This document shows, piece by piece, positions 236 through 9,660 of a stretch of 9,660 nucleotides of DNA. How positions within the stretch are numbered: the first letter of the stretch is position 1; every line of letters begins with the position of its first letter. The stretch is from a virus (Duplodnaviria > Heunggongvirae > Uroviricota > Caudoviricetes), in the IMG/VR virus record IMGVR_UViG_2706794662_000014; one strand, written 5' to 3'. A model generated the notes under the pieces. It had not been told where the DNA came from. It worked only from the letters and a program-made list of their open reading frames with translations, and searched no databases. Made by a program: the position numbers and the translations under genes.

Positions 236-1318
236 TCATTTTCTCTGGCTGATCTTTACCGGATAACCATCCCGAAGATCAATTAAGTGCTCCGGTTCAG
301 AAGCAAACCATGCATAAGATCCCCACGCCAATTCTGGTATTGCCTTTTTAAAAGGCAGAGCACTTCTGTCCATAAATGCCGTAAGGAATGCAAGATTTTT
401 CTCGCTGAACCCAGCGTCAATAGCCAAATGAGTGAGAGTAACTTTTCGTTCCCTGTTTATAGGCCCATCTGTCGCAACTACTTCAGTGAAAACTACAAGC
501 ATGTCCGAACCCGTTCGGTCCTCTCCCAAATCAATCAAAATAATATCTGGAAGTGCTTTTGAGGCATCAATATTCAGCCCCAATGCTTTTGCCAATACAT
601 CATCCTGAGCAACAACTTTATTCCCGGATTCAGACAACCAGAGCACAGTTGGATTCTTAAGAAAATTAGGAGCAAAAACTTCGATGACGGCCTTAGCTAT
701 TGTACTTGACGGGCCCGGAGCTAAAGTTCTCTTCTCTCCATTTGGGAAAGTGACGACTACGGCATCAGCAGCAATCACTGCCCCTGATTTCAATAAACGC
801 AACCTAGCAAGAGCGGCTTTGTTCAAATGATTTTCTTGCCAGGAACTTATTGCACTCAGCAGCGAATCTCCTTCAAGCCCGGCATCAAAGAGTGCTGCAA
901 AAGAGCGATTCAAACTGTAACGAGGACGAGAGGATGTGGTGGGTATACCTTTACGCTCAACAATTGCATTGCAAGGTATTAGGCCATTTTTTATAGTTTC
1001 ATCACGTATTGGCTCACGCGTATTTTCCGCATACCATGCATCAGCAGGCCTTATCTTTTGTTTAGAGAAAGTCATCTTTACCCAGCTTTCTCTGGACGCA
1101 TCATCAGTAAGAGCAGCCTGCGAATCTCCCATACTTACAACCTGGCTGGGCCTTATCCATCGCCCCAGCCCCTCAACCGCACCAGCATAAAACATGACAA
1201 AAATTGTTTTTGCAGCTATTTCCCGAATTAAATATCCACGATTCTCAGTCCCTTCAGGGAAAATTAATTGTAATCTTTCCCGGATAACATTCAATGGGGG
1301 AACAACAGGCAGATTCAT
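236..1318 (-). CDS. Putative type II restriction endonuclease, PstI/BsuBI-like
   Basis: 360-codon ORF. ATG (1318-1316) overlaps the methyltransferase TGA stop (ATGA at 1315-1318), GGAG ~9-12 nt upstream. C-terminal segments LPDIILIDL...LVVFTEVVATDGPINRERK and AWGSYAWFASEPEHLI resemble my recollection of PstI-family enzymes (LPDVVVYD...LFLIEAVTSHGPISPKR). Position directly downstream of a methyltransferase. Family assignment is unverified recall. Confidence 0.6.
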   Translation of the reverse strand: MNLPVVPPLNVIRERLQLIFPEGTENRGYLIREIAAKTIFVMFYAGAVEGLGRWIRPSQVVSMGDSQAALTDDASRESWVKMTFSKQKIRPADAWYAENTREPIRDETIKNGLIPCNAIVERKGIPTTSSRPRYSLNRSFAALFDAGLEGDSLLSAISSWQENHLNKAALARLRLLKSGAVIAADAVVVTFPNGEKRTLAPGPSSTIAKAVIEVFAPNFLKNPTVLWLSESGNKVVAQDDVLAKALGLNIDASKALPDIILIDLGEDRTGSDMLVVFTEVVATDGPINRERKVTLTHLAIDAGFSEKNLAFLTAFMDRSALPFKKAIPELAWGSYAWFASEPEHLIDLRDGYPVKISQRK

Positions 1319-3147
1319 GCAATCATCACTCCATAGAAACCAGCGATAGTTCTCTCAATAATCCGTCTGTGGACGCCAGCATCAATTAACGATTGAATCT
1401 CCATCACCTGCTCCAGAGAAGGCAACGGGATTGAATTCAATTCATAGGCCGAAACAGCAACACTTCCGCTTATACACCTGAACGCCCGATCGACAACATG
1501 CGAATTAAGTAGCATATCAATAACATCAGGGCGAACCGCAGAGAACAATCCGTTTGAATATACAATATTAATATGGTTTTCAACTACTACGCCACCAGTT
1601 TCATCTATAAATCCCTGAGGTAAAATTGCCGCTAAAATCCTTCTGTCCTGTTCCTTCGATGTTGTCCGCTGAACAAGCACACATTCAGATTTTGTCACAA
1701 GGAAACCCTGTTGTGGGGTTATATCGATATAGGGAACATGATTTTTTCTGTCTGCACTAAAACGAAAACCAGCTGAAGTTATTGATTCCGCCCAGACTAA
1801 TGGGTAGCTATTTTTTCCTTTCGTCGTACGCAACTGCGACTTAAATCGATTCCAGACTAACTGACCTGTAGAGACTGAGTATCCCAGATCAGCTAAACGC
1901 GTAGACATCTGTTTTAATACATTAAGAAAACAGGCATCATCTTTAACGCGTGGCAAAAGCCACGTTGCTCCACCTTTTTCTATATCAACATTACCTATTT
2001 TCTCAATTTTTGCTTTGTTCAACCCCTTAGGGACAAGTGAGGATACCTGGGCCCGAACTTTATGTTCTCCCGCCTTGAATGCTGTCAACATTGTTTCCTG
2101 GAGAACATCGTCAAAGACCCCATCCCTGTCAGTGACGAAATCAAGGGCATACGGAGTAGTTTTTTCGGTCAAAAGGGTTCGCAGCGCGGTGAAATACTGC
2201 CCACCAAGAAAAGAAGTTGGCGTAAGAAATGCAATAACTCCTGTTTTCTCTTTAACCATGCGAACAGCTAAGTCGGTGAACAATCCATATAGATTTGCAT
2301 GACCAAATAACGAACGAGAATATTTTTCTCTCGTTTTAATATCGAGAGTGACACGTCCGTAAGGCGGATTCCCTACCACAAGATCATAACCAGAAAATTT
2401 ATCTTGCTGAAGCGCATCAGCAACAATAATTGTATCTTCAGGCAATCTACGTTTTACCTTTACACATAGTGGCATTAGTACAGATTCGAGCAATACCAAA
2501 CTCATCCAAGCCGCAAATGGATCGATTTCTATCCCCTTTAAACGACGACTGATTCTCCTCAACATCCATTCAGGGGAAGACCCCTTGTCTTTTTTTAACA
2601 TTCGAATGGCTACTGGTGCCAAAAATGCACCGCCACCACACGCAGGATCAATAACCGATGCATGAGAAAAATCAACACCAGACTTTTCAGCCAGGTCCAA
2701 GAGACGCGCTACCAAAGGTGGGGGGGTATAGTAAGCCCCCAATTCCGAACGGTAAGCGGATGGCAGCATTACCGTATAAATTGACCCAATCAGATATCCA
2801 GCGTCCTCCGCCGGAAATTGAGCAATAAGCTCACCTGTTCGTTCAGCGAGCTCGCGTGCATCACATGGAATGTCTTCTATGTAAACAGTGTGCGGTACTG
2901 CCCTCATTTTAATGCTGCTTTTTTGCTTTTTTGCAAGGGTATCCCAATATGCAGCTACGATGCTGAAGCAGTATGAGCGGGCATGCATCAACCTTGACTG
3001 CCCGGTTTTGTAATTGCCCGCATAACCTTTGGCCATGGCTTTACAAGTTTGATATCTTTCCAGATTAGAAAACTCATTATCTGTAAAAAAATCAAAATGT
3101 TGCACATTCATAATGTAAAATCCTAATGTATCAAACATGCGGGCCAT
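1315..3147 (-). CDS. N6-adenine (amino) DNA methyltransferase, gamma class, with large C-terminal target-recognition region
   Basis: 610-codon ORF. Motif X GAYYTPPPLV, motif I (AdoMet) VIDPACGGGAFL, motif IV VGNPPYG, in gamma-class order. About 330 aa follow motif IV. Start uncertain (ATG at 3147, 3138 or 3111). Confidence 0.85.
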   Translation of the reverse strand: MARMFDTLGFYIMNVQHFDFFTDNEFSNLERYQTCKAMAKGYAGNYKTGQSRLMHARSYCFSIVAAYWDTLAKKQKSSIKMRAVPHTVYIEDIPCDARELAERTGELIAQFPAEDAGYLIGSIYTVMLPSAYRSELGAYYTPPPLVARLLDLAEKSGVDFSHASVIDPACGGGAFLAPVAIRMLKKDKGSSPEWMLRRISRRLKGIEIDPFAAWMSLVLLESVLMPLCVKVKRRLPEDTIIVADALQQDKFSGYDLVVGNPPYGRVTLDIKTREKYSRSLFGHANLYGLFTDLAVRMVKEKTGVIAFLTPTSFLGGQYFTALRTLLTEKTTPYALDFVTDRDGVFDDVLQETMLTAFKAGEHKVRAQVSSLVPKGLNKAKIEKIGNVDIEKGGATWLLPRVKDDACFLNVLKQMSTRLADLGYSVSTGQLVWNRFKSQLRTTKGKNSYPLVWAESITSAGFRFSADRKNHVPYIDITPQQGFLVTKSECVLVQRTTSKEQDRRILAAILPQGFIDETGGVVVENHINIVYSNGLFSAVRPDVIDMLLNSHVVDRAFRCISGSVAVSAYELNSIPLPSLEQVMEIQSLIDAGVHRRIIERTIAGFYGVMIA

Positions 3148-5472: not shown

Positions 5473-5745
5473 GCACCTGATAANNNNNNNNNNNNNNNNN
5501 NNNNNNNNNNNNNNNNNNNNNNNNNNNNNNNNNNNNNNNNNNNNNNNNNNNNNNNNNNNNNNNNNNNNNNNNNNNNNNNNNNNNNNNNNNNNNNNNNNNN
5601 NNNNNNNNNNNNNNNNNNNNNNNNNNNNNNNNNNNNNNNNNNNNNNNNNNNNNNNNNNNNNNNNNNNNNNNNNNNNNNNNNNNNNNNNNNNNNNNNNNNN
5701 NNNNNNNNNNNNNNNNNNNNNNNNNNNNNNNNNNNNNNNNNNNNN
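5473..5745. other. Run of 273 N (assembly gap or masked sequence)
   Basis: Literal n characters in the sequence. It removes the 3' end of the O-like gene and the 5' end of the DnaC-like gene. Confidence 0.99.
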
Positions 5746-6722
5746 AACCAGGGGTTTTCAAAATTCCGGTCCGGCCCAAAAAACGTCGTCGCTCGCTGAA
5801 CAAATTCCGTTCCCGCTTTCCCGGTCGCCGCCAGGTATCTCGCGTAACGCCTCACACCATCCAGCATGGTCTCTGGTGGCACCCCCTCGCGCAATCTGGC
5901 CTTCCAGGCACTGAATGCGGATTTCTTCGGGTTTGCCCCGGCACGCAACGGGTATTCCCGCCAGACCTGTTCGAACACATCCGGATAATCCACTCGTCCC
6001 ACAGGCTGCCCGGTGTTTTCCGGGGCTACCCGATCGGCTTCCCGCTGAATGGCGGAATCGGCTTCAGGCTGCTGCAGTTGGAGTGATTGCTCCGGCCTTG
6101 CGGTCATCACCTGCTGCACAGCGCCCGAATCGGCTTTCAGCGCATACGCTGAATCGGCTTCCGGTGTCGAGCCTGCTGGCTGACCAGGATTGACGGTCTG
6201 AACATCCCCTGCCTGGTTCGTGGCGTTTTTTACGCCATGGACCATAGTGTTTTGATCTTCTTTATCTGTATCTTTATCTGTATCTGTCGTGACTCGTCGT
6301 GACATGTGCGTGACATTTCGTGACGCGCCGTGACAATCGCCATTTTGTTCCCGCTTTCTTTCCCTCTCTCGCTGCGCCCTCTTGCGCTCTGCAGGAGATT
6401 TTGCGGTTTGCGAAATATTGCCGTTGTCCTCTTTAAGCACCTGGCGTTTTTCCCATCCAGTGATTAAATCACCATCAAGTACCCGCCCCTGCATCGTCTG
6501 CAAAATTGAATCAATTACCTCTTCTGTCACGTCGAGCGCACTTGCCAAATCTTCTGTCGTGACATCAATGTGACCTCGCGTGACATTTCGTGACGCGCTC
6601 ACCAGGAGGTGGATATACACTGCCATCACTGTTGCAATTGGCTGCCCTGACACCCTGGCAATTGTTCGCCACTTAGGGTCATTTGGCATGTCATGCCATA
6701 ATCTGAGCCAGGCGTTAGCCAT
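5746..6722 (-). CDS. Phage replication initiation protein, O-like (YdaU-like), 3' end lost in N gap
   Basis: ATG 6722 (MANAWLRLW...) with RBS AGAGGTGA preferred over ORF-track GTG 6728. N-terminal HTH-like region, low-complexity acidic/Q-rich linker, C-terminal FEQVWREYP...KKSAFSAWKARL. Position between cII-position gene and DnaC-like loader; contains iteron arrays. Confidence 0.65.
6259..6334. repeat. Iteron array plus AT-rich 12-bp tandem repeat: candidate replication origin inside the O-like gene
   Basis: CGTGAC cores at 6288, 6298, 6309, 6319, 6329 (spacing 10-11 bp), preceded by TCTTTATCTGTA x2 (6259-6282). Confidence 0.6.
6523..6598. repeat. Second iteron-like cluster, in the N-terminal coding region of the O-like gene
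   Basis: CGTGAC at 6558, 6579, 6589; TGTGAC at 6569; inverted GTCACG at 6526-6531. The 21-mer GCGTGACATTTCGTGACGCGC at 6578-6598 is identical to 6308-6328. Confidence 0.55.
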
Positions 6723-6793: not shown

Positions 6794-7219
6794 TCAATGT
6801 ACTGCCACAGCATTTCCTGCCGGGCCACCACGGTTCATCTGATTGAAACCGGCGATTGCCACTGCGACAAAATCATCAGCGTCTCTCACCAGTCGTTCAT
6901 GCGTCTCCACCAGTTCCCGAAAATAAGCTGAACTGTGGCTGCGCATTCGAGCCACCAGCGGAGGTGGCATTGCCCTTTCGATCGCAGGTAACAACGCCTG
7001 AATTTTTTCAACAGCGTCAGGGGTGTCTTTATCCAGCCAACGGAAAATCTTTTGGGTGTTGAGATAAAGCGTGTTGTGCTTGCTGTCGTTATGCAGAACC
7101 GGAAACGTCATTCCCAGTTCGAAATAAACCCTGGTTATTTCAGCTGCCGGAACTTTTTCACCGTCCGGATGCGCCCAGGCTTTCATCGCCATGCGGATGT
7201 GTTCATGCTTGATTTTCAT
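6794..7219 (-). CDS. cII-position protein, possibly YdaT-like
   Basis: 141-codon ORF, ATG 7219-7217 overlapping the Cro-like stop (ATGA). Sits between cro-like and O-like genes. YdaT assignment is from synteny and vague recall only. Confidence 0.6.
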   Translation of the reverse strand: MKIKHEHIRMAMKAWAHPDGEKVPAAEITRVYFELGMTFPVLHNDSKHNTLYLNTQKIFRWLDKDTPDAVEKIQALLPAIERAMPPPLVARMRSHSSAYFRELVETHERLVRDADDFVAVAIAGFNQMNRGGPAGNAVAVH

Positions 7220-7479
7220 GAATCAACCCCCGCCGATGGTTGTGTGTTAGCCTGAAACTCAGCAGGCAAGCCGTCAGTTGGGTTGGGGTAGGTTTTACTG
7301 TCAATCTCATGTGGGGTCACCACCCATCCCGTTGCTTCACACCAACGTAATATTTTTTCTCCTGTAAGTTTTGCACGCCCCGTTATAACGTGGCTGACCA
7401 TCCCTTGGGATGCGCCAACAATCTCAGCAAATGAACTCTGGGTTATATGAAAATGATGCAAATATTCTCCAAGATTCAT
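7216..7479 (-). CDS. Cro-like HTH transcriptional regulator
   Basis: ORF track starts at TTG 7506; first ATG at 7479 (MNLGEYLHH...). HTH segment SSFAEIVGASQGMVSHVITGRAKL. Divergent from the repressor gene, downstream of the PR-like promoter. Confidence 0.7.
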   Translation of the reverse strand: MNLGEYLHHFHITQSSFAEIVGASQGMVSHVITGRAKLTGEKILRWCEATGWVVTPHEIDSKTYPNPTDGLPAEFQANTQPSAGVDS

Positions 7480-7513
7480 AATCCGCCCTATGTGATGTGT
7501 TACCAATGCATAA

Positions 7514-7542
7514 TTAATAGCACTGTTATTTTTAAAAGTAAA
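7514..7542 (-). promoter_or_regulatory. PR-like promoter for the cro-like operon
   Basis: On minus strand: -35 TTTACT (plus 7537-7542), 17-nt spacer, -10 TATTAA (plus 7514-7519); ~27-nt leader to ATG 7479. Confidence 0.45.
7516..7530. promoter_or_regulatory. Operator-like 15-bp palindromic site OR-a (AATAGCACTGTTATT)
   Basis: Half-sites AATAGC / AATAAC around a 3-bp centre; overlaps the PR-like -10. Member of a four-copy motif family. Confidence 0.6.
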
Positions 7543-7555
7543 TAGTGATGCTATT
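7541..7555. promoter_or_regulatory. Operator-like 15-bp palindromic site OR-b (AATAGTGATGCTATT)
   Basis: Centre 25 bp from OR-a; overlaps the PR-like -35 and abuts the PRM-like -35. Confidence 0.6.
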
Positions 7556-7583
7556 TCAAAGTGATTAGCAATCTTATTAGAAT
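7555..7583 (+). promoter_or_regulatory. PRM-like promoter for the repressor gene, possibly giving a leaderless transcript
   Basis: -35 TTCAAA (7555-7560), 17-nt spacer, -10 TAGAAT (7578-7583); predicted start ~7590, at the ATG (7591). No clear Shine-Dalgarno before ATG 7591. Confidence 0.4.
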
Positions 7584-7590
7584 TGGATGT

Positions 7591-8091
7591 ATGAAAAGAA
7601 AATCATTGTCAGACACCGACCTCAACGCCGCCAGAAGACTGAAAGAAATCTGGATGGCAAAGAAATCTCAGTTGGGATTGACTCAGGAACGTGCGGCGGA
7701 AATTATGGGGTTTTCAACACAAGGGGCGGTAAGTCACTACCTAAATGGTCAAACCCCACTAAACCTTGAGGCTGTTCTAAAGTTTGCTGGCTTACTGAAA
7801 GTTCCCCCTGAGTCAATCAGGCCAGACATGGTAGATTTGCTGCAAATTGCAAGGATGTATTGTCGAGAACCACAGCAAGATAACATAGTCGCATTACCAG
7901 CAGACACAGAACAAACAGAGGATGAACTACCGTTTGCCGTAGAGCCGATGGAACGAGATTTAATCCATACGTTCAGAGCTTTTCCGAAAGAAGATCAAGA
8001 ACACATGCTTCAGGAGATGAAAGATAAAAAAGAATCAATGGATCGTACGGTTGCGCGGTGGTTAGCTGCACAAAAAGGCCGTCGCGCCTAA
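7591..8091 (+). CDS. Prophage repressor, lambda cI N-terminal-domain-like HTH, no S24/LexA-type cleavage domain; possibly PaaR2-like regulator of the downstream toxin-antitoxin pair
   Basis: ATG 7591 (MKRKSLSDTDLNAARRLKEIW...) preferred over ORF-track GTG 7561. First ~80 aa parallel lambda cI as I recall it ([35 protein letters not shown] vs LSDTDLNAARRLKEIWMAKKSQLGLTQERAAEIMG). Total 166 aa; C-terminal half acidic with no Ser/Lys peptidase motifs. Confidence 0.75.
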   Translation: MKRKSLSDTDLNAARRLKEIWMAKKSQLGLTQERAAEIMGFSTQGAVSHYLNGQTPLNLEAVLKFAGLLKVPPESIRPDMVDLLQIARMYCREPQQDNIVALPADTEQTEDELPFAVEPMERDLIHTFRAFPKEDQEHMLQEMKDKKESMDRTVARWLAAQKGRRA

Positions 8092-8110: not shown

Positions 8111-8305
8111 ATGAGTACAGTCCTTTCCCCAATGGTTTCAGAATTTGAGACAGTTGAGCAAGAAAATAGTTACAACGAATGGCTGCGGGCCAAAGTAGCA
8201 GCAAGCCTCGCGGATCCCCGCCCGGCGATTCCGCATGATGAGGTAATGGCGGAAATGGAACAAATTATTGCCCAAATTGCTGCTGCAACTCACAGAGGTG
8301 AATAA
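8111..8305 (+). CDS. paaA2: Type II antitoxin, PaaA2-like, partner of ParE-family toxin
   Basis: 64-codon ORF, RBS AGAGGAG (8095-8101) 9 nt before ATG, TAA stop overlapping the toxin ATG (TAATG at 8302-8307). Sequence LSPMVSEFETVEQENSYNEWLRAKVAASLADPRPAIPHDEV matches my recollection of PaaA2 from E. coli O157:H7; symbol is from memory. Confidence 0.7.
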   Translation: MSTVLSPMVSEFETVEQENSYNEWLRAKVAASLADPRPAIPHDEVMAEMEQIIAQIAAATHRGE

Positions 8306-8595
8306 TGTTACCCGTTTTATGGCTACCATCTGCTCGTGATGATTTGCGCCAGATCGTAGCCTACATAGCTAAAGAAAATCCCGCGGCAGCACGCAGAATG
8401 AAAATTCGAATTGAAACATCCGTTTTGCCGCTCACAGAGCATCCTTACCTGTATCCTCCAAGCGAGCGAGTTCTTGGTCTTCGTGAAATTGTAACTCATC
8501 CTAACTACATCATCCTTTACCGAGTAACAGCATCAAGCATAGAAGTAGTAAATATTGTGCATTCTCGAAGACAGTATCCAGGCAAAAACAGTTAA
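8305..8595 (+). CDS. parE: ParE/RelE-superfamily toxin (ParE2-like)
   Basis: 96 codons. Typical ParE pattern: MLPVLWLPSARDDLRQIVAYIA...PYLYPPSERVLGLREIVTHPNYIILYRV...IEVVNIVHSRR. Translationally coupled to the upstream antitoxin. Confidence 0.85.
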   Translation: MLPVLWLPSARDDLRQIVAYIAKENPAAARRMKIRIETSVLPLTEHPYLYPPSERVLGLREIVTHPNYIILYRVTASSIEVVNIVHSRRQYPGKNS

Positions 8596-8611
8596 TTATT
8601 CCCGCCGACAG

Positions 8612-8636
8612 AACCACCTTAGGGTGGTTTTTTCTT
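8612..8636 (+). terminator. Rho-independent terminator ending the repressor/toxin-antitoxin transcript
   Basis: Stem AACCACC (8612-8618), loop TTAG, stem GGTGGTT (8623-8629), then T-tract TTTTTCTT to 8636; 17 nt after the parE stop. Confidence 0.75.
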
Positions 8637-8651
8637 GCCCCAACAAAAAAC

Positions 8652-8666
8652 AATAGCGATGCTATT
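8652..8666. promoter_or_regulatory. Operator-like 15-bp palindromic site OL-a (AATAGCGATGCTATT)
   Basis: Perfect palindrome around a GAT centre; overlaps the -35 of the PL-like promoter. Confidence 0.6.
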
Positions 8667-8694
8667 TACATCAAAAAAATAATGATGCTATTGT
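8665..8694 (+). promoter_or_regulatory. PL-like early promoter
   Basis: -35 TTTACA (8665-8670), 18-nt spacer, -10 TATTGT (8689-8694); both hexamers overlapped by operator sites; sits just downstream of the terminator. Confidence 0.45.
8678..8692. promoter_or_regulatory. Operator-like 15-bp palindromic site OL-b (AATAATGATGCTATT)
   Basis: Centre 26 bp from OL-a; overlaps the -10 of the PL-like promoter. Confidence 0.6.
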
Positions 8695-8873
8695 TTCAGG
8701 CGTCAACCCTCCCCGCCCCACAGAATGCAGGGCAATACTTCGAGTTACCAGACAGTGGTCAGGGGTTAAGTAGCCAGCCCGAGGCGTAAGAACATGACGG
8801 CAGGGTTCAATCTTTAACTATGCAGCAGGTTTTTTGTTCCGCCACCCCGGCGTTAAGGGGAAATGAGGTCAGC

Positions 8874-9026
8874 ATGGATACTATCGATCTTGGCAACAAC
8901 GAATCTCTGGTGTGCGGCGTGTTCCCTAACCAGGATGGAACGTTTACCGCCATGACGTATACCAAAAGCAAAACGTTTAAAACCGAATCTGGCGCGCGTT
9001 GCTGGTTAGCCAGAAACACTGACTGA
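8874..9026 (+). CDS. Small hypothetical protein (50 aa), first gene after the PL-like promoter
   Basis: ATG 8874 with GAGG (8865-8868) 5 nt upstream is preferred over the ORF-track ATG 8820, which has no RBS. TGA stop overlaps the next start (TGATG). One Cys pair, no recognisable motif. Confidence 0.45.
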   Translation: MDTIDLGNNESLVCGVFPNQDGTFTAMTYTKSKTFKTESGARCWLARNTD

Positions 9027-9403
9027 TGAGGCTGACGATGGAATTTAAAGATTTACCGTCTGATGTACAGAAAACAGCAGCTCATACATTGCATTCTGTG
9101 CTGCGAGAAATCGGGAAAGATATTGCAAGCGAGCCAGCAAAAGATCTGGCCCGGAAAATCAAGACCGCTTTCGTTGAGCTTTATAATGTTGGCACTGACT
9201 CTGAAACTGTCGAGACCAAGACCGTAAGTTCACCAATATTCTCACTTGAGCCAAGCGTATTATCAGGTGAAATATGCACCGAGATTTCCAGCGAACTGCT
9301 TCCGGTAATACGAGAAGCAATTCGCCGTCGCGGTTTGGATGGAAGTTATGATCATGACGTTCTGCAAGTTCTCAGGACAATGGTGACTTCACTGGGGATT
9401 TGA
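9026..9403 (+). CDS. Hypothetical protein (125 aa; or 121 aa from ATG 9038)
   Basis: ATG 9026 overlaps the upstream stop; alternative ATG 9038 has GAGG (9028-9031) 6 nt upstream. Acidic, helical-looking; not arginine-rich as lambda N would be. Confidence 0.5.
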   Translation: MRLTMEFKDLPSDVQKTAAHTLHSVLREIGKDIASEPAKDLARKIKTAFVELYNVGTDSETVETKTVSSPIFSLEPSVLSGEICTEISSELLPVIREAIRRRGLDGSYDHDVLQVLRTMVTSLGI

Positions 9404-9535
9404 TCCCTGCGTCCTCTAAGCTTTTGATATAGCGGTCCTCCAAGAAGCGGTAAATTTTGTCGAAATCATCTTTTCCCTCTGGTTTATTCAGAGGATTACA
9501 GGACCCGTAAGTAGCGGCATACATTTCAACCGTTT

Positions 9536-9660
9536 GGTAATGACTCCAACTTATTGATAGTGTTTTATGTTCAGATAATGCCCGATGACTTTGTCATGCA
9601 GCTCCACCGATTTTGAGAACGACAGCGACTTCCGTCCCAGCCGTGCCAGGTGCTGCCTCA
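9536..9660 (-). mobile_element. IS1 insertion sequence, partial (right inverted-repeat end; element continues right of the window)
   Basis: 9536-9660 reads as the reverse complement of the last ~125 nt of IS1 as I recall it (GGTAATGACTCCAACTTATTGATAGTGTTTTATGTTCAGATAATG...). insB 3' end on the minus strand, TAA at 9551-9553. Same orientation as the copy at 1-83. Confidence 0.9.

What the first reader, a model, noticed from the sequence alone, without database searches (positions are those of the whole stretch)
8695..9403. Early-left operon opens with a ~180-nt leader and two small coupled genes of unknown function
After the PL-like promoter there is a ~180-nt untranslated leader (8695-8873), then a 50-aa ORF and a 125-aa ORF joined by a TGATG overlap. 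Neither looks like an arginine-rich N-type antiterminator. Lambdoid early-left regions commonly encode Kil-like host inhibitors, superinfection exclusion or anti-restriction functions.
Basis: inference. Interest (0 to 1): 0.45.

Follow-up and report, generated by a model that had tools for sequence, protein, structure and literature searches.

The report
Conserved structured RNA in prophage leader
The "untranslated leader" of this prophage's early-left operon is a folded, conserved RNA that sits in about two-thirds of complete E. coli genomes and in unrelated phages yet is not annotated or in Rfam, whereas the two small genes behind it are ordinary phage genes of unknown function.

Summary
The described features are real. 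A repressor-controlled PL-type promoter (8665-8694) is followed by a ~170-nt leader, a 50-aa ORF (DUF1391/YdfA family) and a second ORF. The second ORF's supported start is ATG 9038 (121 aa), not the TGATG-overlap ATG at 9026. Profile searches found no N, Kil, SieB, anti-restriction or defence match for either ORF.

The leader is the notable part. Positions 8705-8807 form a multi-helix RNA domain closed by a helix that starts about 3 nt after the predicted transcription start. Across 56 distinct copies, 22 of 28 pairs show compensatory changes. Positions 8840-8860 form a covarying H-type pseudoknot just upstream of the ribosome-binding site.

The 5' domain has no Rfam match and is not homologous to HK022/HK639 put RNA. 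It occurs in 3693 of 5426 complete E. coli genomes, including K-12 Rac. It also occurs in N-encoding lambdoid phages (upstream of boxA-boxB), in Pasteurellaceae phages and in three T7-like phages. Close relatives such as Qin and mEp460 lack it.

Function is unproven. My best guess (~0.35) is a cis-acting RNA that modifies the host RNA polymerase elongation complex. Rivals are a trans-acting early RNA, a 5'-end stabiliser or ribozyme, and a riboswitch.

The parts
8612..8634 (+). Terminator-like hairpin (AACCACC-TTA-GGTGGTT followed by a T-run) ending the repressor-paaA-parE operon
   Evidence: Read from the sequence. Not listed by the simple scan.
8652..8694 (+). PL-type promoter (-35 TTTACA 8665-8670, -10 TATTGT 8689-8694) overlapped by two operator-like palindromes (8652-8666, 8678-8692)
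   Evidence: The same palindrome occurs at PR/PRM (7516-7530, 7541-7555). Experimental analogy to PL933P from PMC8630535.
8705..8807 (+). 5' RNA domain (class I). Helices: P1 8705-8709/8803-8807; P1b 8710-8712/8799-8801; P2 8713-8714/8762-8763; P3 8718-8721/8755-8758; P4 8726-8732/8748-8754. P4 closes the conserved 15-nt loop CAAUACUUCGAGUUA (8733-8747). Conserved junction: AAGUAGCC (8768-8775), GCC/GGC hairpin (8773-8775/8783-8785), GUAAGAACAUGAC (8786-8798).
   Evidence: Covariation. Covariance-model hit of 114 bits, E 1e-35, the only copy in the window. P1 starts 10 nt after the -10.
8808..8839 (+). Linker: AU-rich stretch, conserved GCAGCAGG (8822-8829), U6 (8830-8835), GUUC (8836-8839)
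   Evidence: GCGCAGYAGG-N-GUUCC recurs in 70 distinct 3' modules. The alternative hairpin plus U-run is weak: -8.8 kcal/mol, z -0.86.
8840..8860 (+). H-type pseudoknot: S1 8840-8843/8849-8852, S2 8845-8848/8857-8860, loop 3 UUAA. It lies 4 nt upstream of SD GAGG (8865-8868).
   Evidence: In 32 distinct variants S2 pairs 114/128 against 79.5 in shuffles (0/2000), and S1 pairs 119 against 112 (1/2000).
8874..9026 (+). ORF1, 50 aa, DUF1391 (YdfA/YdaF family)
   Evidence: Pfam PF07151 at 98.9 bits (cut-off 27.3). PHROG 751. 303 close homologues. AF2 pLDDT 81.7, beta-beta-beta-alpha fold.
9038..9403 (+). ORF2, 121 aa (an alternative in-frame ATG at 9026 gives 125 aa). Conserved ~50-aa helical N-terminal module with a variable C-terminus.
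   Evidence: PHROG 33007 at 4e-80 covering 1-121/121. Homologues start MEF. mEp460 annotation. AF2 model poor, pLDDT 57.5.
9372..9524 (-). Opposite-strand small ORF, truncated at its 5' end by the IS1 insertion
   Evidence: PHROG 34441 at 6e-36, matching only profile positions 17-66 of 66. Intact in mEp460.
9523..9660 (.). End of an IS1-family insertion sequence that cuts the early-left operon
   Evidence: At least 5000 plasmid records and 15402 places match at 97-100% identity, and some are annotated as IS1 family transposase. The inverted repeat GGTAATGACTCC starts at 9534.

Best explanation
SHOWN: the leader of this PL transcript is built from two conserved structured RNA modules. Module 1 (8705-8807) is a self-contained ~105-nt multi-helix domain. 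It is closed by a helix that pairs nucleotides about 3-8 of the predicted transcript with 8803-8807. It carries an invariant terminal loop and an invariant junction core (AAGUAGCC ... GGCRUAWGAAC AUGA). Module 2 (8822-8860) is a GCAGCAGG-GUUCC motif plus an H-type pseudoknot placed directly 5' of the ribosome-binding site of whichever gene comes first.

INFERRED, my preferred mechanism: module 1 folds co-transcriptionally on the RNA polymerase that makes it and, through a conserved host component, changes the properties of that elongation complex. That component could be RNA polymerase itself or Nus-type factors. The effect would be anti-pausing, anti-termination or anti-Rho activity. This would carry transcription through the long N-less early-left operon (ydfA-orf121-...-dicF terminator-dicB-recE in intact relatives). 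In that sense it works like HK022 putL without being a member of that family. Module 2 probably tunes translation initiation or stability of the first cistron.

The two ORFs are ordinary accessory early genes: DUF1391, possibly a small DNA-binding fold, and an uncharacterised modular protein.

I put the existence of a functional structured RNA at about 0.95 and the elongation-complex mechanism at about 0.35.
For: Structure:
- On a sequence-only MAFFT alignment of 23 diverse copies, 17 of 28 pairs carry double changes. That is 81 cells against 35 in shuffles (0/500) and 14-36 when the partners are slid.
- On 56 distinct model-aligned copies, 22 of 28 pairs and 216 cells covary, against 80 in shuffles.
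- RNAalifold independently recovers P1, the closing pairs of P4 and the GCC/GGC hairpin.

Position:
- Conservation begins sharply after the -10, while the promoters and operators upstream differ between copies.
- 44 of 61 distinct upstream contexts have a sigma70-like promoter whose -10 ends 6-17 nt before P1.
- This is the placement reported for HK022 putL, just downstream of PL (PMC9378689).
- There is one copy, on the PL side only. Phage HK639 is likewise annotated with only a putL.

Host range and context:
- The same junction core occurs in Enterobacterales, Pasteurellaceae and Aeromonas phages, and in a second architecture, class II. This suggests a conserved host target.
- In independent lineages the domain is followed by an rrn-type boxA (GCTCTTTAAC). 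These are N-type Arsenophonus, Phlomobacter and Symbiopectobacterium prophages, class II lambdoids, and the T7-like phages Kaonashi and HMGUkp3. That links it to Nus-factor leaders.
- The Rac/Qin-type phages that carry it show no N protein. Their operon contains the dicF terminator, which must be read through to reach dicB (PMC10448788).
Against: - No biochemical or genetic data exist for this RNA.
- The viable phage mEp460 and K-12 Qin have the same operon but replace the 110-nt domain with a 14-nt hairpin. The domain is therefore dispensable for expression of the operon.
- It coexists with a bona fide N gene plus boxA/boxB in several prophages. That would be redundant for a put-like element.
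- There is no copy downstream of PR.
- Simple scans did not show strong intrinsic terminators downstream in Tritos or Evi.
- In Aeromonas phage LAh1 the only promoter passing the scan lies just after, not before, the element.
- Folding energies are no better than shuffled sequence.
- The G-U versus A-C strand test is inconclusive, so orientation rests on context.
Confidence: 0.35

Rival explanations
1. Trans-acting early RNA. The domain is cut out of the leader, for example at the AU-rich stretch after P1, or made as a short transcript. It then acts in trans as the first phage product after infection or induction, as a decoy or inhibitor for a common host protein or RNA.
For: - It is self-contained and closed by P1, and it is independent of what follows. 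Downstream it is joined to the pseudoknot plus any of several first genes, to boxA-boxB-N, or to a second promoter.
- It is optional between close relatives, as accessory anti-host functions are.
- There is one copy per genome.
- In T7-like phages it lies in the non-coding stretch before the first early genes.
Against: No processed species has been observed. No complementarity to a host RNA was tested. Known phage and prophage sRNA families in Rfam do not match. Very high prevalence (68% of E. coli genomes) argues against a strain-specific defence target.
Confidence: 0.2
2. 5'-end protection or processing element. The P1-closed domain shields the 5' end of the early-left mRNA from RppH/RNase E. 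Alternatively it is a small self-cleaving ribozyme that creates a defined 5' end.
For: - P1 starts about 3 nt from the predicted 5' end.
- Relatives without the domain carry a plain 5' hairpin (ACACCGCACGGUGU) at the same place, as expected for a stabiliser.
- Two architectures share one invariant junction core with variable arms, a pattern typical of small ribozymes.
Against: A stabiliser needs no invariant loop or junction conserved from E. coli to Actinobacillus and Aeromonas phages. There is no match to any Rfam ribozyme. No cleavage site can be inferred.
Confidence: 0.2
3. Ligand-sensing riboswitch. The P1-closed junction is an aptamer for a host metabolite or alarmone, and ligand binding decides whether the early-left operon is expressed.
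For: The architecture has conserved junction nucleotides, covarying peripheral helices and variable downstream sequence. In the window and its closest relatives, the P1/P1b 3' strand can instead pair with GCAGCAGG ahead of a U6 run.
Against: - That alternative hairpin is weak (-8.8 kcal/mol, z -0.86).
- The U-run is absent in K-12 Rac, Pasteurellaceae and class II copies.
- The SD is not sequestered.
- In N-type and T7-like contexts no expression platform is visible.
Confidence: 0.08
4. The leader is functionally unimportant. Its conservation would reflect recent common ancestry or a DNA-level site, and the biology of the locus would lie in the two ORFs.
For: E. coli copies are 90-99% identical to each other. 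ORF1 belongs to a very widespread family.
Against: Compensatory double changes occur across copies as low as about 40-60% identical, found in several bacterial orders and two phage groups. The module recombines independently of ORF1. The conservation boundaries coincide with the transcription start and with P1.
Confidence: 0.03

Closest known systems
HK022 / HK639 put RNAs (cis-acting RNA antiterminators that bind the RNA polymerase beta' zinc-binding domain)
   Same: A structured RNA encoded immediately downstream of PL in lambdoid phages lacking N. HK639 is annotated with a left-operon copy only. The 5' nucleotides of the transcript are part of the fold (PMC9378689).
   Different: There is no sequence or structural homology. 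The covariance model finds nothing at HK022 or HK639 putL, and the sequences differ by eye. This element is a ~105-nt junction rather than two ~35-nt stem-loops. It coexists with N and nut in some phages. Its function is untested.
Lambda nutL (boxA-boxB) and rrn-type boxA leaders
   Same: A promoter-proximal RNA signal in an early operon. In many relatives the domain sits directly 5' of boxA (GCTCTTTAAC) with or without boxB, followed by a GGGGUGUGUGA boxC-like sequence and an N gene.
   Different: The window has no conserved boxA or boxB. It has only a 2-mismatch boxA-like AATCTTTAAC at 8809-8818, which is at chance level and is not conserved in relatives. No N protein is present.
T7 early leader (between host promoters A1 and A2, upstream of boxA and RNase III site R0.3)
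   Same: T7-like Melnykvirinae phages have significant model hits in the equivalent non-coding early region, and two of them have boxA downstream. T7 nt 523-600 shows a similar string, AAGTAGACAGCCTGA...ACGAA...TTGACA.
   Different: T7 itself does not score (5 bits, E 2.5). No function is known to me for that T7 segment (own knowledge).
CP-933P / Rac / Qin immunity regions (PaaR2-PaaA2-ParE2, RacR, DicA; dicBF operon)
   Same: The gene order matches: repressor(-TA)-PL-ydfA/ydaF-like genes. PL933P is repressed by PaaR2 and YdaS (PMC8630535). K-12 Rac carries a full copy of the RNA domain (113.6 bits).
   Different: The window's immunity region is a rare variant: 2 genomes at 99% and about 63 at ~79%. 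K-12 Qin lacks the 5' domain. The published work on these loci does not describe the leader RNA.
DUF1391 (YdfA/YdaF)
   Same: ORF1 is a full-length member.
   Different: None. The family has no known function.

Membership tests
put RNA (HK022/HK639) | Sequence and secondary-structure homology to put (two stem-loops, ~70 nt) | tested here: not met
   Model R1 gives no hit at HK022 PL/putL or at the annotated HK639 putL at 34187-34312. The sequences are unrelated by eye.
put RNA (HK022/HK639) | Located just downstream of an early promoter, with the 5' end of the transcript inside the fold | tested here: met
   P1 starts 10 nt after the -10 in the window. 44 of 61 distinct contexts have a promoter 6-17 nt upstream.
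put RNA (HK022/HK639) | Promotes terminator read-through in cis without a phage protein, and depends on the beta' zinc-binding domain | not testable with these tools
   Needs transcription assays and rpoC mutants.
N/nut antitermination (lambda type) | boxA plus boxB hairpin in the leader | tested here: not met
   Only a chance-level 2-mismatch boxA-like string at 8809-8818, with no GNRA-like boxB. Relatives do have CGCTCTTTAAC plus CGCTGAAAAAGCG after the same domain.
N/nut antitermination (lambda type) | Arg-rich N protein encoded downstream | tested here: not met
   There is no Pfam N_peptide hit for ORF1 or ORF2. The same library scores the Arsenophonus-type ORF at 40.6 bits.
Any Rfam 15 family | Covariance-model match | tested here: not met
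   No hit at E<=1 in 8600-8880, nor at the class II element of ST64B.
Transcriptional riboswitch / attenuator | Conserved mutually exclusive terminator or SD-sequestering helix | tested here: not met
   The alternative hairpin plus U6 gives -8.8 kcal/mol and z -0.86. The U-run is not conserved.
Structured non-coding RNA (generic) | Compensatory base changes above shuffled and slid controls | tested here: met
   5' domain; pseudoknot; class II.
DUF1391 (PF07151) | Pfam score above the gathering threshold over the full length | tested here: met
   98.9 bits against 27.3, covering residues 2-48 of 50.
Kil / SieB / anti-restriction / defence proteins | Profile match in Pfam, PHROGs, NCBIfam or PADLOC | tested here: not met
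   Searches give only function-unknown families.
AP2 / lambda-Int N-terminal-type DNA-binding fold (for ORF1) | Significant structural match | tested here: inconclusive

The most novel reading that the evidence does not exclude
The 8705-8807 domain and its class II relatives would represent a previously undescribed family of phage leader RNAs. It would be placed at the very start of host-polymerase early transcripts in both lambdoid and T7-like phages. It would bind a conserved gammaproteobacterial machine (RNA polymerase/Nus complex, Rho or RNase E), or be a new ribozyme or aptamer class. That would make it a new protein-independent way for phages to control early transcription or RNA fate, one sitting unnoticed even in E. 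coli K-12 (Rac).
Probability: 0.4. Interest if true: 0.85.

Novelty: new variant of a known kind. Interest (0 to 1): 0.66.

Why it matters
How N-less lambdoid phages of the Rac/Qin/ST64B types get through their early operons is unknown. Only the small put family offers an RNA-based precedent. A covariation-supported RNA at the first nucleotides of PL gives a concrete candidate that can be tested directly in K-12, whose Rac prophage carries a full copy. The same RNA is present in 68% of complete E. coli genomes and is shared with Pasteurellaceae and T7-like phages. Its function may turn out to be antitermination, early RNA stabilisation, a trans-acting decoy or ligand sensing. In each case it would add a new RNA class to phage early gene control and improve prophage annotation, since no record inspected here annotates it. 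It also shows that the two ORFs themselves are unremarkable.

Tried and rejected
- Rfam on the window and on ST64B found no family for the leader.
- tRNA/tmRNA scan found nothing.
- Homology to put was rejected by model search and by eye.
- The attenuator/terminator model was rejected because the hairpin is weak and not conserved.
- boxA in the window is at chance level.
- A second copy near PR does not exist.
- Thermodynamic stability gave z-scores near 0, so it is uninformative.
- The strand test by G-U versus A-C counts was inconclusive.
- Literal-sequence and keyword literature searches found no description of the element. I checked the dicBF, PaaR2, YdaT and Pas-sRNA papers. King et al. 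2011 on HK639 could not be read.
- The genome contigs pattern was too loose. Most of its 120 loci were chance hits, and only Enterobacterales loci survived the model.
- A simple terminator scan of Tritos and Evi found no strong downstream terminators.
- The ORF2 structure had too low confidence for a fold search.
- The ORF1 fold search gave no significant match.
- A resemblance of the pseudoknot module to CRISPR I-F/I-E repeats was considered from memory and dropped as superficial. It was not tested.
- CsrA-type GGA motifs occur in class II only, by eye, and were not pursued.
Full report
SETTING. The window is the immunity and early region of a Rac/Qin/CP-933P-like lambdoid prophage. On the + strand lie an HTH repressor (7561-8091; HTH_3, weak DicA match), a PaaA2 antitoxin (8111-8305) and a ParE toxin (8305-8595). 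On the - strand lie ydaS-like (7216-7506) and ydaT (6794-7219) genes, followed by replication genes. This is the three-gene PaaR-PaaA-ParE arrangement studied in CP-933P, where PaaR2, YdaS and YdaT act as CI, Cro and CII analogues (PMC8630535). The window's version is a rare immunity variant: 2 complete E. coli genomes match at 99% and about 63 at ~79%.

THE OBSERVATION. After parE there is a terminator-like hairpin (8612-8634, read from the sequence). It is followed by TTTACA-18-TATTGT at 8665-8694. A 15-bp palindrome, AATAGCnnnGCTATT, overlaps the -35 and the -10 of this promoter and occurs twice more at the divergent PR/PRM region. That is 4 matches with at most 2 mismatches against 0.41 expected, and 0 of 200 shuffles reach 4. 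The promoter is therefore a repressor-controlled PL analogue. In CP-933P the equivalent PL933P was shown with reporters to be repressed about 100-fold by PaaR2 and YdaS, and the authors noted that no function could be assigned to the ORFs downstream. The ORFs are as described.

ORF1 (8874-9026) is a full-length DUF1391 protein of the YdfA/YdaF family (Pfam 98.9 bits; PHROG 751). ORF2 does have an ATG overlapping the ORF1 stop (TGATG, 9024-9028). However, PHROG 33007 aligns 1-121 of 121 from the ATG at 9038, and the homologues begin MEF. The intact phage mEp460_ev081 is also annotated that way, with an 11-nt spacer and GAGG upstream. Coupling by overlap is therefore unlikely. The operon is cut by an IS1 end from about 9523/9534. 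In mEp460 it continues to dicB, ydfD-like and recE genes.

THE LEADER IS A MOSAIC MODULE. BLAST of 8596-9535 showed that window 8704-8863 travels on its own. In phages Evi, 640R1 and 813R8 it precedes other genes, and Actinobacillus phage pPE4 has it at 76% identity. In each case it lies right after the repressor gene. Aligned copies are unrelated through the promoter and operators. They become nearly identical a few bases after the -10 and diverge again just before the SD. An exact-motif scan of viral contigs gave more than 120 loci with 78 distinct 160-nt cores. These are as little as about 40-60% identical to the window in a crude ungapped comparison. A caveat applies: loci were retrieved through an invariant motif, so the invariance of that motif within this set is partly by construction. 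The T7-like and class II relatives described below were found by other routes.

STRUCTURE OF THE 5' DOMAIN. Independent MFE folds of divergent copies converge on one architecture. P1 pairs transcript positions about 3-8 with the segment after GACGGCA (window AACCC/GGGUU; elsewhere ACAAC/GUUGU, AGCAAC/GUUGCU, UCACU/AGUGA). P1b is a short helix. A long arm, P2-P3-P4, ends in an invariant 15-nt loop, CAAKACNNNGAGUUA. The junction is conserved: YWAAGUAGCCAGCCYGAGGCRUAWGAACAUGA. On a sequence-only MAFFT alignment of 23 copies, 73% of cells pair against 63% in shuffles. Seventeen of 28 pairs carry double changes, and 81 cells covary against 35 in shuffles (0/500) and 14-36 when partners are slid. 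A covariance model (R1) aligned 65 copies, 56 of them distinct. On that alignment 81% of cells pair against 67%, 22 of 28 pairs show double changes, and 216 cells covary against 80 in shuffles (0/500) and 23-66 when slid. This alignment is fitted to the model, so the earlier MAFFT result is the less biased one. RNAalifold on the same alignment independently recovers P1 (14-23 double changes per pair), the two closing pairs of P4, and a GCC/GGC hairpin. Folding energies are not better than shuffled sequence, and the G-U versus A-C strand test is inconclusive. The evidence is therefore covariation plus context. Orientation follows from the promoter, the sharp 5' boundary and the co-oriented genes.

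THE 3' MODULE. From GCAGCAGG (8822-8829) through GUUCC to 8860 the leader matches a unit found in 70 distinct variants: GCGCAGYAGG-N-GUUCCGCY plus a hairpin whose loop pairs with the sequence 4-5 nt downstream. Both stems of this H-type pseudoknot covary. Examples are CGCC/GGCG, CGUC/GACG and CACC/GGUG for S1, and CCCC/GGGG, GCUC/GAGC, GUCC/GGAC and GCCA/UGGC for S2. S2 pairs 114 of 128 against 79.5 in shuffles (0/2000), and S1 pairs 119 against 112 (1/2000). The register was chosen per sequence, which inflates absolute values, but the shuffle keeps the same halves. The pseudoknot always sits a few nucleotides 5' of the SD of whichever gene comes first. It is not sequestering the SD.

DISTRIBUTION AND CONTEXT.
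- R1 finds one copy in the window (114 bits, E 1e-35) and none near PR.
- The 109-nt domain is present in 3693 of 5426 complete E. coli genomes (5931 places). No feature is annotated under it in any record listed.
- K-12 Rac has a full copy between racR and ydaG (113.6 bits).
- K-12 Qin and phage mEp460 lack it. They have CAUCAAC, a 14-nt hairpin, CAGCAAACA and then the same 3' module and ydfA. The 5' domain is thus an optional, self-contained insert.
- In genomes it occurs in Serratia, Winslowiella, Superficieibacter, Symbiopectobacterium, Arsenophonus (several copies) and Phlomobacter.
- In the last three genera the order is cI-type repressor, promoter, domain, boxA (CGCTCTTTAAC), boxB-like CGCTGAAAAAGCG, GGUUUUGGGGUGUGUGA, then an Arg-rich ORF. 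That ORF matches Pfam N_peptide at 40.6 bits, above the 27.9 cut-off.
- 44 of 61 distinct upstream contexts have a sigma70-like promoter whose -10 ends 6-17 nt before P1.
- R1 also hits three T7-like Autographiviridae inside the ~1.2-kb non-coding stretch before their first early genes. These are LAh1 (43.5 bits, E 2e-12), Kaonashi (42 bits) and HMGUkp3 (23.8 bits, E 6e-6), all with compensatory P4 changes. Kaonashi and HMGUkp3 have boxA downstream.
- In LAh1 a strong promoter starts within the P1 3' strand, and the upstream promoter is seen only by eye. Transcription of the element in T7-like phages is therefore inferred.
- T7 and lambda themselves do not score, although T7 nt 523-600 shows a suggestive string.

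A SECOND CLASS. A different pattern (AAGTAGC...GCATACGAA) uncovered 71 distinct class II cores. Each has P1, then ARGGCAGGAYGCCCACG, AAGUAGC, a 5-bp stem enclosing the loop GGCAUACGAANA, AUGA, and the 3' strand of P1. P1 comes in three complementary types (CCACC/GGUGG, UCAUC/GAUGA, GCGAA/UUCGC), and the stem shows GC/CG and GC/AU swaps. Class II occupies the same place in ST64B, SfII, SfIV, mEp237, SPN3UB, SEN34, phiNP, ZF40 and Yersinia, Klebsiella and Aeromonas phages, and is not annotated in them. It is usually followed by the same 3' module (71 of 88), and sometimes by a hairpin plus boxA. The shared core AAGUAGC ... GGCRUAYGAA ... AUGA inside a P1-closed junction is probably the functional centre.

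COMPARISON WITH KNOWN ELEMENTS. Rfam 15 has no match. HK022 putL and the annotated HK639 putL are homologous to each other but unrelated to this RNA. It shares with put its position at the start of the PL transcript and, as in HK639, its presence on the left side only. It differs in size and architecture, in coexisting with N and nut in some phages, and in being dispensable in close relatives. The window has no conserved boxA or boxB. A riboswitch-like switch between P1 and a hairpin plus U6 can be drawn for the window, but that hairpin is weak and not conserved. The papers I could read on these loci (dicBF regulation, PaaR2, YdaT, Pas sRNAs, put structure) do not describe it.

INTERPRETATION. 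Shown: a widespread, unannotated, covariation-supported bipartite leader RNA at the 5' end of PL. Inferred: what it does.
- Preferred model (~0.35): action on the transcribing elongation complex, giving anti-pausing, antitermination or anti-Rho activity. The reasons are the promoter-proximal position, the conserved core across hosts that share the transcription machinery, the repeated linkage with rrn-type boxA leaders in three lineages, and the lack of N in Rac/Qin-type phages, whose operon contains the dicF terminator. Against it stand dispensability (mEp460, Qin), coexistence with N, no PR copy and no experimental data.
- Trans-acting early RNA (~0.2). This fits the modular, optional, context-independent nature of the domain.
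- 5'-end stabiliser or ribozyme (~0.2). This fits the replacement by a plain 5' hairpin in relatives and the two-architecture core.
- Riboswitch (~0.08).
- No function (~0.03).
The remainder is unassigned.

VERDICT. The valuable result is the leader. I rate it a new variant of a known kind (phage early-leader RNA signals) rather than categorically new, because its function is untested. Interest is 0.66.

Noticed in passing
L330-L356, L255-L328 (viral contigs); ST64B L358:2494-2556; also SfII, SfIV, mEp237, SPN3UB, SEN34, phiNP, ZF40: A second architecture, class II, of PL-leader RNA shares the core AAGUAGC...GGCAUACGAA...AUGA. There are 71 distinct cores, with covarying P1 and stem, and none is annotated.
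   Followed up: partly
L249:1968-2084 (Aeromonas phage LAh1), L248:1971-2091 (Serratia phage Kaonashi), L250:1966-2083 (Klebsiella phage HMGUkp3): T7-like Autographiviridae carry significant matches to the 5' domain in the non-coding region before their early genes. Two have an rrn-type boxA downstream. In LAh1 a 10/12 sigma70 promoter overlaps the P1 3' strand.
   Followed up: partly
T7 NC_001604 nt 523-600 (L251): The A1-A2 promoter spacer reads AAGTAGACAGCCTGATAAGTCGCACGAAAAACAGGTATTGACA, resembling the junction core. The model score is not significant (5 bits, E 2.5). T7 also has GACGCTCTTTAACAATCTGG at ~810.
   Followed up: partly
NC_000913 1419505-1419622, minus strand (L247:3006-3123); L246:1843-2008: E. 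coli K-12 Rac has a full copy between racR and ydaG (113.6 bits). K-12 Qin (dicA-ydfA spacer) has only a 14-nt hairpin plus the 3' pseudoknot module.
   Followed up: yes
L358:2557-3190 (ST64B): About 640 nt of GC-rich non-coding sequence lies between the class II element and the first annotated early-left gene. It includes a sub-threshold Rfam STnc100 match (35 bits against a gathering score of 47) and a hairpin plus U-run.
   Followed up: no
L110, L132, L153, L190, L182, L231: In Arsenophonus, Phlomobacter and Symbiopectobacterium prophages the domain is followed by boxA, a boxB-like GAAAA-loop hairpin, a boxC-like GGGGUGUGUGA and an N_peptide-family ORF. This layout closely parallels the lambda N leader.
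   Followed up: partly
window 9523-9660 and 9372-9524 (-): An IS1 end interrupts the early-left operon and removes the first ~16 codons of an opposite-strand PHROG 34441 gene.
   Followed up: partly
window 236-3147 (-): A BsuBI/PstI-type restriction endonuclease (236-1318) and an Eco57I/N6-type methyltransferase (1315-3147) lie inside the prophage, downstream of DUF1627 and DUF977 genes.
   Followed up: no
window ~5480-5800: The ORF translations across this stretch contain long runs of X, so the sequence is masked or undetermined within the replication genes.
   Followed up: no
window 7516-7555 and 8652-8692: Four copies of the operator-like palindrome AATAGCnnnGCTATT define OR- and OL-type sites of this rare immunity variant.
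   Followed up: yes
L007:4588-4681: One viral contig has a variant in which the whole P2-P4 arm is replaced by an unrelated short segment while P1 and the junction core are kept (56.6 bits).
   Followed up: no
lambda PL +1 (L252), Qin, L330, L331, L008: The transcription-start context CAUCA(A/G)C, and a GCAGCA(R) string both before and after the 5' domain, recur across leaders including lambda (AUCAGCAGGAC). This may be a trace of how the module was inserted (by eye).
   Followed up: no
window 8874-9026: The DUF1391 AF2 model (pLDDT 81.7) is a beta-beta-beta-alpha unit. Its best, non-significant superpositions are AP2/ERF and lambda Int N-terminal DNA-binding domains.
   Followed up: partly
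HK639 NC_016158 37910-37969: The record annotates an 'M3-like RNA' downstream of cII. I did not examine it.
   Followed up: no
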